DNA of 64,000 nucleotides from IMG/VR virus record IMGVR_UViG_2974638963_000001, positions 32,001-96,000 of that record. One strand, 5' to 3'. Source of the stretch: a virus (taxonomy: Duplodnaviria; Caudoviricetes). The notes beneath the pieces are model-generated. The model was not told the DNA's origin. It saw only the letters and a program-made list of their open reading frames with translations, and searched no databases. Positions 3,129-3,665 of this stretch are shown piece by piece. Every line of letters begins with the position of its first letter. The first letter of the stretch is position 1. The translations under genes and the position numbers were made by a program.

Positions 3129-3205
3129 TGGTACTGCGACCTGGGTTTGAACCAGGGAACCTCTCGATTATCAGTCAAGCGCTCTACCAACTGAGCTATC
3201 GCAGT
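3129..3205 (-). tRNA. tRNA-Ile(GAT)
   Basis: Acceptor ACTGCGA/TCGCAGT; anticodon loop CT GAT AA; CCA. Confidence 0.92.
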
Positions 3206-3311
3206 ATTAATTGTAAGAACACTCTTCGAATGCTCTTACAGTTAATTTTGTAAAACTAACTGGTGCACTCCTTTTCAAAGGATTTGGGTAAGCACGTACC
3301 CTCACGGTGTT

Positions 3312-3501
3312 TGGCGTTCTGGAACGGGGGTCGAACCCGCAAATACTAAGATCCTCATTCCTACTCACTGGTCTGCGTAGTCCAGCCCCTCGGTGCTATT
3401 GGATTCTTTTCTTCTGTACCCGAACCTAGTTACTATTTTAACCTCACAGCCTCAATCCACGCAGATGAAAGAGCTAAGCAACCTAGTTGTACAACCAGAC
3501 C
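3312..3501 (-). ncRNA. 190-nt tRNA-like RNA (acceptor stem, T-arm, CCA; large structured insert replacing the anticodon arm)
   Basis: 5' GGTCTGG pairs with 3' CCAGAAC-G-CCA; T-arm GCGGG TTCGACC CCCGT; nested stems TCTTTCAT/ATGAGGA, TCTGCGTGG/CTACGCAGA, GGATT/AATCC. Confidence 0.7.
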
Positions 3502-3507
3502 ATAATT

Positions 3508-3585
3508 TGGCACTGTAGAAGGGAGTCGAACCCTCAATGCTCCACCTTGAAAGGGTGGTGACTTTACCAGTTTGTCCACTACAGT
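3508..3585 (-). tRNA. tRNA-Glu(TTC)
   Basis: Anticodon arm CCACC-CT TTC AA-GGTGG; CCA. Confidence 0.92.
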
Positions 3586-3665
3586 ATAATCTAACTAAGA
3601 CTTGTAGGTCTGTTTCCACGGCTTAATTATCCGATTTGTCTCTACTCATTTACAAGTCTTAAAAT

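What the first reader, a model, noticed from the sequence alone, without database searches (positions are those of the whole stretch)
3312..3501. 190-nt tRNA-mimic with tmRNA-like architecture but no Ala identity or tag ORF
Seen: acceptor stem GGTCTGG/CCAGAAC with G discriminator and CCA, a canonical T-arm, and a short D-like segment. In place of the anticodon arm is a ~140-nt nested domain (TGCTTAG/CTTAGTA, TCTTTCAT/ATGAGGA, TCTGCGTGG/CTACGCAGA, GGATT/AATCC). It starts 7 nt downstream of the tRNA-Glu CCA end, so it is probably matured by RNase P. It has no G3:U70 pair and is about half the size of tmRNA. Established: T4 encodes CCA-ended non-tRNA stable RNAs (RNA C and D) in its tRNA cluster. 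Inference: a decoy for tRNA-targeting defences or a ribosome-interacting RNA. tRNA finders would probably miss it.
Basis: partly seen in the sequence, partly recalled or inferred. Interest (0 to 1): 0.75.

Follow-up and report, generated by a model that had tools for sequence, protein, structure and literature searches.

The report
Phage tRNA-Glu-derived kissing-arm RNA
A 190-nt RNA gene in this T5-like phage's tRNA cluster keeps the two ends of a tRNA (probably tRNA-Glu) but replaces the middle with two long arms whose loops pair with each other; the same gene, with the same boundaries, is found in unrelated Ackermannviridae phages and in no RNA catalogue, and its function is unknown.

Summary
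The element is real. It lies on the minus strand at 3501->3312 and has an acceptor stem, a canonical T-arm and an encoded RCCA end. ARAGORN and Rfam both miss it.

It is a discrete RNA gene of 189-190 nt. Copies exist in Providencia phage PSTCR5, in 29 Ackermannviridae records (Limestonevirus, Agtrevirus, Taipeivirus, two Kuttervirus) and on one metagenome contig. Homology starts at G1 and stops at CCA.

Across 9 copies, 93% of modelled pairs form, against 34-51% in slid controls, and 14 pairs show compensatory changes. A 17-bp 5' arm and a 3' arm join through an 8-bp loop-loop helix, so the RNA is pseudoknotted.

- It is not a tmRNA: pair 3:70 is U:A and no tag frame is conserved.
- It is not an intron-bearing tRNA: no shared splice points give a tRNA.
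- It is not a detectable homologue of T4 rnaC.

Both ends most resemble tRNA-Glu, and an invariant 10-mer holds the tRNA-Glu anticodon-loop sequence CUUUCA at tRNA positions 32-37.

My best guess, which is inference only, is a stable tRNA(Glu) mimic that engages a tRNA-binding host factor. An earlier first-reader note on another genome (e1-4037869, unchecked) shares 21 of 58 sampled words with this element and mentions an unassigned ~220-nt stretch.

The parts
3312..3501 (-). Whole RNA gene, 190 nt (RNA nt n = 3502 - window coordinate)
   Evidence: Homology with PSTCR5 and with Ackermannviridae copies begins at G1 and ends at CCA. The covariance model R1 scores it 167.5 bits.
3495..3501 (-). 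P1 acceptor stem, 5' strand (nt 1-7)
   Evidence: Pairs with nt 180-186. Pairs 5:68 and 6:67 change on both sides between the clades.
3312..3322 (-). P1 3' strand (nt 180-186), discriminator (nt 187, G or A) and CCA (nt 188-190)
   Evidence: The discriminator is A/G polymorphic in both clades.
3324..3340 (-). T-arm (nt 162-178): 5-bp stem and loop UUCGACC
   Evidence: Weak tmRNA/tRNA T-arm hit. Contigs from related phages carry C163:G177 -> U:A. A loop position varies C/U.
3477..3494 (-). 5' arm, 5' strand: P2 (nt 8-13), P3a (nt 14-16), P3 (nt 17-25, G20 bulged)
   Evidence: P2 pairs in 100% of cells, with 3 pair types at 13:83. P3a pair 15:78 is A:U in one clade and G:C in the other. P3 forms in both clades from different sequences. 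The arm is present in the unconstrained MFE.
3414..3434 (-). 5' arm, 3' strand (nt 68-88), with bulges G76 and C80-G82
3466..3475 (-). Invariant 10-mer AGCUCUUUCA (nt 27-36). It contains CUUUCA, the anticodon-loop sequence of tRNA-Glu(UUC).
   Evidence: Invariant in all 9 copies. It matches the anticodon loops of E. coli gltT, the T5-like tRNA-Glu and the phage's own tRNA-Glu. In the Ackermannviridae copies it falls at nt 32-37.
3457..3464 (-). P4b 5' strand (nt 38-45), the loop-loop (kissing) helix
   Evidence: 8 pairs, 100% of cells paired, 3 compensatory pairs.
3373..3380 (-). P4b 3' strand (nt 122-129), which lies in the apical loop of the 3' arm
   Evidence: One relative (X8) loses the last pair.
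3440..3451 (-). P5 hairpin (nt 51-62) with GNRA tetraloop GUGA
   Evidence: The loop is GUGA, GUAA or GCAA. The closing pair changes U.G -> G:C.
3368..3385 (-). P6 stem (nt 117-120 / 131-134), which encloses the 10-nt loop carrying the P4b 3' strand
   Evidence: 97% of cells paired, 2 compensatory pairs.
3347..3363 (-). Unresolved 3' segment (nt 139-155): a local hairpin UAGGA/UCUUA whose loop carries GAG
   Evidence: 75-88% of cells paired. U154C in relatives breaks one pair. In Ackermannviridae copies the 5' side pairs better with upstream nt (cols 108-112 / 140-144). The loop triplet is GAG, GAA or UAG.

Best explanation
This is a free-standing gene for a stable, structured, non-decoding RNA of 190 nt.

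Maturation (inferred): it is transcribed inside the polycistronic tRNA precursor and trimmed at both ends like a tRNA, by RNase P at G1 and with an encoded RCCA 3' end.

Fold: it keeps the acceptor/T-arm minihelix of a tRNA. In place of the D-arm and anticodon arm it carries two long arms:
- a 17-bp 5' arm that ends in a 42-nt loop;
- a shorter 3' arm that ends in a 10-nt loop.
The two arms are locked together by an 8-bp loop-loop helix. The large loop also carries a GNRA-capped hairpin.

Origin (inferred): the RNA appears to derive from, or be kept similar to, tRNA-Glu. Its ends resemble tRNA-Glu, and the tRNA-Glu anticodon-loop sequence CUUUCA is invariant and sits at the tRNA distance from the 5' end.

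Most likely function (inference, about 35%): a molecular mimic of tRNA(Glu). It would bind, and so titrate or block, a host protein that recognises tRNA(Glu), such as a tRNA-directed defence nuclease or modifier, or GluRS. It cannot enter translation.

What is shown: the gene boundaries, the conservation and the helices. What is inferred: processing, stability, origin from tRNA-Glu and function.
For: Boundaries and selection
- The PSTCR5 copy differs at 3 of 190 nt, while the spacer just 3' of CCA is heavily diverged with indels.
- Related contigs keep nt 1-79 unchanged but scramble 3262-3311.
- Ackermannviridae copies are also 189 nt and align end to end. Their flanks share nothing with this genome.
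- LIMEstone1 keeps the RNA although its whole genome has one canonical tRNA.

Structure
- 92.8% of 432 cells pair, against 33.6-50.7% when partners are slid. 14 pairs change on both sides, against 0-3 in the slid controls.
- P2, P4b and P5 pair in 100% of cells.
- P2 and P4b cross each other, so the RNA is pseudoknotted.
- An independent compensatory change in the T-stem is seen in relatives.

tRNA-Glu likeness
- Every listed blastn hit for nt 154-190 that carries an annotation lies under tRNA-Glu in a T5-like phage; the best four rows are unannotated.
- End-similarity scores put T5-like tRNA-Glu first for this clade (28, next non-Glu 16) and E. coli gltT first for the other clade (23 vs 21).
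- The 5' 38 nt of the LIMEstone1 copy align best to gltT.
- Among the covariance model's weak non-family matches (17-25 bits), some fall on tRNA-Glu (W01 22.7, W02 17.5 bits), but the highest ones in this window fall on tRNA-Arg and tRNA-Lys.
- AGCUCUUUCA is invariant.

Context: phage tRNAs are known to counter tRNA-targeting defences (PMC10264068, PMC11555353).
Against: - No experiment or read-level data show a discrete transcript, its ends, its stability or any binding partner. The one RNA-library contig that covers it may be DNA.
- tRNA-Glu likeness is moderate. For this clade's 5' half tRNA-Glu is not the top scorer. The 2:71 pair, a GluRS identity element in E. coli, is mismatched here.
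- CUUUCA is not in a 7-nt loop closed by a 5-bp stem, so a protein that reads a normal anticodon stem-loop might not accept it.
- Its invariance could equally reflect intramolecular pairing (cols 31-35/134-138 or 33-37/146-150) or some other ligand.
- Only two deep clades exist, so many of the 'compensatory' cells trace back to one split.
- The structure of nt 89-161 is unresolved in this clade.
Confidence: 0.4

Rival explanations
1. tRNA ends as handles only. The acceptor/T module serves for RNase P processing, CCA maintenance and stability, like a natural tRNA scaffold. The active part is the kissing-arm domain, which would bind a protein or small ligand, or act as an RNA switch or catalyst, with no link to tRNA-Glu.
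For: The invariant blocks lie in the inserted domain (AGCUCUUUCA, GAUUGAG, GUUAAA, GGACU..GAC), while acceptor pairs covary freely. A GNRA tetraloop and a pseudoknot are typical of compact tertiary folds. Single-sequence folds alternate between two nested conformations of similar energy, which is compatible with a switch.
Against: It does not explain why both clades' ends are closest to tRNA-Glu, nor why the Glu anticodon-loop hexamer sits at tRNA position 32-37. No ribozyme or riboswitch family matches.
Confidence: 0.3
2. A chargeable tRNA(Glu)-like molecule. It would be aminoacylated (by GluRS or another synthetase) and used outside normal decoding, for example as an amino-acid donor, a regulator or a ribosome-binding factor.
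For: It has an intact acceptor/T minihelix with an encoded CCA. The Ackermannviridae copies have G1:C72 and U2:A71, as tRNA-Glu does.
Against: The discriminator is A/G polymorphic within both clades. Pair 2:71 is G.A or G.G in this clade. There is no canonical anticodon stem-loop. The bulky arms would not fit ribosomal tRNA sites (inference).
Confidence: 0.12
3. An interrupted tRNA gene. The insert(s) would be spliced out to give an ordinary tRNA.
For: The 5' 37 nt have the length of a tRNA 5' half ending in CUUUCA. Deleting nt 22-139 from the LIMEstone1 copy gives an ARAGORN 'tRNA-Leu(GAG)'.
Against: No deletion boundaries give a tRNA for this window's copy or for SJ2, and those that work give different 'anticodons' in different copies. 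No group I intron model matches, and the insert is about 115-125 nt, below the size of known group I introns (the size limit is from my own knowledge). P2 pairs 'exon' with 'insert' and covaries. The genome already has 25 tRNAs, including tRNA-Glu and two tRNA-Leu, and lacks only Cys.
Confidence: 0.05
4. A miniature tmRNA or ribosome-rescue RNA.
For: It has a tRNA-like module plus a pseudoknot. There is a weak tmRNA-model hit on the T-arm. This copy has a short frame GCA..UAG.
Against: Pair 3:70 is U:A in all copies. The frame is not conserved: by eye from the alignment, the LIMEstone1 and P46FS4 copies reach UGA within three codons. ARAGORN's tmRNA search is negative. It is about half the size of tmRNA.
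Confidence: 0.03
5. Not an RNA gene: a small protein gene on the opposite strand, or a decaying tRNA pseudogene or spacer.
For: Antisense ORFs exist here (3307-3429) and are annotated over the Ackermannviridae copies.
Against: The antisense translations are not conserved, and their starts and lengths differ. The annotated CDSs lie on different strands in different phages. Substitutions follow base-pairing rather than codons. The element is far better conserved than its flanks.
Confidence: 0.03

Closest known systems
Phage T4 species 1 and 2 RNAs (rnaC, rnaD)
   Same: They are non-tRNA stable RNAs encoded inside a phage tRNA cluster. rnaC also has a terminal stem and a canonical T-arm around a large internal domain. 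Their function is unknown.
   Different: There is no detectable homology: the covariance model finds nothing at rnaC or rnaD in the whole T4 record. They are 139 and 119 nt, and they have neither the kissing-arm fold nor the Glu-like hexamer.
tRNA-Glu(UUC) of E. coli and of T5-like phages
   Same: The acceptor stem, T-arm, discriminator and CCA are the most similar among the tRNAs compared. CUUUCA sits at the anticodon-loop distance from the 5' end.
   Different: It has no D-arm and no 5-bp/7-nt anticodon arm. It carries about 115 extra nt that form two arms and a pseudoknot. tRNA models do not detect it.
tmRNA (SsrA)
   Same: A tRNA-like acceptor/T module without a normal anticodon arm, joined to a pseudoknotted body.
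   Different: Pair 3:70 is U:A, not G:U. No tag reading frame is conserved. There is one pseudoknot, not four. It is 190 nt and matches no model.
YrlA / bacterial and phage Y RNAs
   Same: A non-coding RNA that embeds tRNA-like elements (T-arm, elbow), found in enterobacteria and some phages.
   Different: From my own knowledge, Y RNAs close with a long Ro-binding stem and lack a mature acceptor-CCA end. Here the tRNA-like part is the terminus. No Rfam family matched.

Membership tests
tRNA (Rfam RF00005) | 7-bp acceptor stem, discriminator and CCA | tested here: met
   nt 1-7/180-186 with one mismatch, then G and CCA. The stem covaries.
tRNA (Rfam RF00005) | T-arm with UUCRANY loop | tested here: met
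   GCGGG-UUCGACC-CCCGU, with a compensatory change in relatives.
tRNA (Rfam RF00005) | D-arm (3-4 bp, 7-11-nt loop) and anticodon arm (5 bp, 7-nt loop), total length 70-95 nt | tested here: not met
   nt 8-25 pair with nt 68-88 as a 17-bp arm. No conserved canonical anticodon arm exists. The RNA is 190 nt.
tRNA (Rfam RF00005) | Detected by a tRNA model | tested here: not met
   ARAGORN with and without introns. Rfam at gathering score and at E<=10.
tmRNA (RF00023 and clan) | G3:U70 alanine identity pair | tested here: not met
   U3:A70 in all 8 distinct copies.
tmRNA (RF00023 and clan) | Conserved tag reading frame with resume codon and stop | tested here: not met
   The frame present in this copy is interrupted at once in the Ackermannviridae copies (read by eye from the alignment). 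ARAGORN reports no tmRNA.
tmRNA (RF00023 and clan) | Match to a tmRNA covariance model | tested here: not met
   Only 15-17 nt of the T-arm match, at 8.6-11.3 bits against a gathering score of 47.
T4 rnaC-type stable RNA | Lies in a phage tRNA cluster, next to tRNAs | tested here: met
   It starts 6 nt after tRNA-Glu. The T4 arrangement is shown.
T4 rnaC-type stable RNA | Sequence or structure homology to rnaC/rnaD | tested here: not met
   Model R1 finds no match at rnaC or rnaD.
tRNA gene with group I intron | Removing one insert restores a canonical tRNA; the intron core matches a group I model | tested here: not met
   A scan of 52 x 65 deletion boundaries in 5 copies found no shared solution, and none at all for this copy. 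No Intron_gpI hit.
Y RNA / YrlA | Ro-binding terminal helix and association with rsr | not tested
   No Rfam match of any kind. Neighbouring genes were not screened for rsr.

The most novel reading that the evidence does not exclude
The RNA is a dedicated mimic of tRNA(Glu). Its Glu anticodon-loop sequence is presented on a rigid kissing-arm scaffold. It may be held by an internal codon-like triplet (GAG or GAA in the 3' segment, complementary to UUC). In this form it traps or inhibits a tRNA(Glu)-specific host nuclease, modifier or synthetase. That would make it an RNA-only anti-defence or host-takeover factor that moves horizontally between unrelated phage families as a self-contained gene.
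Probability: 0.2. Interest if true: 0.85.

Novelty: new variant of a known kind. Interest (0 to 1): 0.64.

Why it matters
Phage tRNA clusters have been known since the T4 work to hold CCA-ended RNAs that are not tRNAs, and their function is still unknown. This element gives a second, better-defined case.

- Its gene boundaries are exact.
- Its pseudoknotted fold is supported by comparison between copies.
- It points to one specific tRNA.
- It occurs in two unrelated phage families that infect enterobacteria, with a patchy distribution typical of accessory or counter-defence genes.

tRNA-targeting immunity and phage tRNA counter-measures are an active field. A non-decoding tRNA mimic would be a new type of player in that field, and it is directly testable in cultivable phages (PSTCR5, LIMEstone1, May).

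It also shows that annotated 'hypothetical proteins' over this locus in several GenBank records are probably spurious.

Tried and rejected
Searches for further members
- Exact or degenerate DNA patterns in viral contigs returned only records of PSTCR5, LIMEstone1, P46FS4 and May.
- L007 was an unrelated tRNA.
- The metagenome scan gave one true member (L012) and three chance hits, L013-L015.
- The genome-contig scans gave nothing or chance hits, L023-L027; L022 came from the viral scan. The model rejected all of these.
- The neighbouring 60-aa protein led only to PSTCR5.
- blastn against E. coli genomes found nothing.
- The model found nothing in whole records of T5, two other T5-like phages, a Sugarlandvirus, a Thalassavirus, T4, CBA120 and ViI.

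Structures considered and dropped or left open
- P4a (cols 31-35/134-138), which competes with P6.
- The anticodon-like hairpin at nt 139-155, which is ambiguous.
- A direct repeat AACUAGGUU that I first read as a target-site duplication. It is simply the two strands of P3.

Other points
- The covariance-model realignment did not re-register P3 for this clade.
- Read laying: a metatranscriptome contig (X19) covers nt 1-86, but this does not show transcription. Parts without cover mean nothing.
- Literature searches found no description of this RNA.
- The antisense ORFs were rejected.

Full report
**Where it lies.** The window comes from a 118,537-bp T5-like phage record with terminal repeats. 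Its closest relative in the public collections searched is Providencia phage PSTCR5, genus Priunavirus, family Demerecviridae. All 18 tRNA genes in the window are on the minus strand. The whole genome has 25 tRNAs and lacks only tRNA-Cys. The finding lies in the 302-nt gap between tRNA-Glu (3508-3585) and tRNA-Ile (3129-3205). In RNA sense it runs 3501->3312, so RNA nt n equals 3502 minus the window coordinate.

**Check of the observation.**
- The sequence has GGUCUGG at nt 1-7. This pairs with CCAGAAC at nt 180-186, with one G.A mismatch at 2:71.
- The T-arm is GCGGG/UUCGACC/CCCGU at nt 162-178, followed by one extra U (nt 179).
- The discriminator is G, followed by CCA.
- The RNA starts 6 nt after the CCA of tRNA-Glu.
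- ARAGORN misses it, also with introns allowed. Rfam gives nothing at gathering score. At E<=10 it gives only a 15-nt tmRNA-model hit on the T-arm.
- The single-sequence fold energy is no better than shuffles (z = 0.67). Thermodynamics alone therefore says nothing.

**It is a discrete, selected gene.**
- In PSTCR5 the 190 nt differ at three positions: one in the T-loop, position 71, and the discriminator. The sequence immediately 3' of CCA is heavily diverged, with indels.
- Contigs of related phages from public runs show the same pattern. nt 1-79 are unchanged, a few changes lie in the 3' part, and 3262-3311 is scrambled.
- A marginal blastn hit (E = 0.01) of nt 27-88 led to Ackermannviridae.
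- Full-length copies of 189 nt are present in 29 records. These are Limestonevirus, Agtrevirus and Taipeivirus phages and two Kuttervirus phages. A 190-nt copy lies on one metagenome contig.
- The two clades align from G1 to CCA. Their flanks are unrelated.
- A covariance model built from 9 copies (R1) scores them 167-228 bits.
- R1 finds nothing else in T4 (including rnaC and rnaD), T5, two other T5-like phages, a Sugarlandvirus, a Thalassavirus, CBA120 or ViI.
- The distribution is therefore narrow and patchy.
- LIMEstone1 keeps the RNA although its genome has one canonical tRNA.

**Structure.** Pairs were counted on the 9-copy alignment A4.
- 92.8% of 432 cells pair, against 33.6-50.7% when partners are slid by 1-3 columns.
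- 14 pairs change on both sides, against 0-3 in the slid controls.
- None of 500 column shuffles reaches the observed covariation score.

The helices with good support, in this copy's numbering, are:
- P1, the acceptor stem, with 2 compensatory pairs.
- P2, nt 8-13/83-88. All cells pair, and there are three pair types at 13:83.
- P3a, nt 14-16/77-79.
- P3, nt 17-25/68-75. It forms in both clades from unrelated sequences, and its duplex energy is in the best 1-5% of shuffles.
- P5, nt 51-54/59-62, capped by a GNRA loop.
- P6, nt 117-120/131-134.
- P4b, nt 38-45/122-129. All cells pair, and 3 pairs are compensatory.
- The T-stem. Relatives add an independent C163:G177 -> U:A change.

P2, P3a and P3 together make a 17-bp arm, which also appears in the unconstrained MFE. 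P4b joins the large loop of that arm to the 10-nt loop closed by P6. It therefore crosses P2 and P3, and the RNA is pseudoknotted. MFE programs flip between two nested alternatives for this reason.

The helix GGATT/AATCC competes with P4b and has only a loose counterpart in the other clade.

The segment nt 89-161 is unresolved in this clade. In Ackermannviridae copies, cols 108-112 pair with cols 140-144, with an A:U <-> U:A exchange. The local hairpin at nt 139-155 loses a pair in relatives.

A caveat applies to all of this. There are only two deep clades plus minor variants, so many compensatory cells go back to one split.

**What it is not.**
- tmRNA: pair 3:70 is U:A everywhere. The short frame in this copy is not conserved (read by eye). 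No tmRNA was called.
- Intron-bearing tRNA: 52 x 65 deletion boundaries in five copies gave no tRNA for this copy or for SJ2. They gave inconsistent 'anticodons' elsewhere. P2 also pairs the would-be exon with the would-be intron.
- Protein gene: the antisense ORFs are not conserved. The CDSs annotated over the locus lie on different strands in different phages.

**The tRNA-Glu connection.**
- Every listed blastn hit of nt 154-190 that carries an annotation lies under tRNA-Glu in a T5-like phage. The best four rows are unannotated.
- In a comparison with 60 tRNAs, this clade's ends score 28 against T5-like tRNA-Glu, and the next non-Glu tRNA scores 16.
- The LIMEstone1-type ends score highest against E. 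coli gltT, by a narrow margin of 23 to 21.
- The 5' 38 nt of the LIMEstone1 copy also align best to gltT. For this clade's 5' half, tRNA-Glu is near the top but not first.
- The only long invariant single-stranded block, AGCUCUUUCA, contains CUUUCA. That is the anticodon-loop sequence of all three tRNA-Glu genes examined. It sits at nt 32-37 in the Ackermannviridae copies and at nt 31-36 here.
- The 3' segment carries a triplet complementary to UUC: GAG in most copies, GAA in the metagenome copy and UAG in SJ2 and SeF3a. A contact between cols 33-37 and 146-150 is possible, since 90% of cells pair. It has no two-sided changes and is broken in two copies.
- I take tRNA-Glu ancestry or mimicry as moderately supported, at about 60%.

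**Mechanism.** What is shown is a gene with tRNA-type ends and a conserved kissing-arm fold.

What is inferred is the following:
- The RNA is released from the tRNA precursor by RNase P and 3' trimming.
- It accumulates as a stable RNA.
- It cannot decode.
- It works by being recognised as tRNA(Glu) by some tRNA-binding factor.

tRNA-targeting defences, and phage tRNAs that counter them, are documented (PMC10264068, PMC11555353; titles of PMC12409363 and PMC12851939). No tRNA(Glu)-specific system was tied to this RNA.

The main rival is that the tRNA ends are only processing and stability handles for an unrelated functional domain.

**Novelty and verdict.** No catalogue or paper I could search describes this RNA. 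It belongs to the known kind 'non-tRNA stable RNAs of phage tRNA clusters'. It is a new family with a distinct, comparison-supported architecture, a specific tRNA likeness and a cross-family distribution. An earlier first-reader note on another genome (e1-4037869, unchecked) shares 21 of 58 sampled words with this element and mentions an unassigned ~220-nt stretch.

Noticed in passing
window 3206-3261 (minus strand, just upstream of tRNA-Ile): This block stays about 90% identical to PSTCR5, while the adjacent spacer 3262-3311 is scrambled. It contains a hairpin (GUAAGAGCA..UGUUCUUAC) and TTTACA. It may be a promoter or processing signal for the Ile-Asn unit.
   Followed up: partly
The spacer is poorly conserved: PSTCR5 and the related contigs carry many substitutions and indels.
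   Followed up: partly
window 3586-3665: The 80-nt spacer between tRNA-Tyr and tRNA-Glu carries a 10-bp inverted repeat (AAGACTTGTA / TACAAGTCTT). It is absent from PSTCR5, where Tyr and Glu are 6 nt apart.
   Followed up: no
L008 about 1066-1168 (LIMEstone1); also P46FS4 and May: Directly upstream of the Ackermannviridae copies lies another RNA-like unit of about 103 nt. It starts GGGGCGAUAGUUUAAGGG and ends ..ACCCCGCCA, and ARAGORN misses it. It is not found in this window's genome.
   Followed up: partly
L008 1235-1384 (-), L009 1235-1471 (-), L017 1290-1487 (+): GenBank 'hypothetical protein' CDSs overlap the RNA gene on different strands in different phages. They are probably mis-annotations.
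   Followed up: partly
Run X19 contig laid on window 3416-3589: A relative in a metatranscriptome library has 94 extra letters between tRNA-Glu and the RNA. Its sequence diverges after RNA nt 86. It may represent a third, more distant variant.
   Followed up: no
Whole genome: The genome has 25 tRNAs covering 19 amino acids; only tRNA-Cys is missing. In T5-like relatives tRNA-Cys sits between the Glu group and tRNA-Asn.
   Followed up: partly
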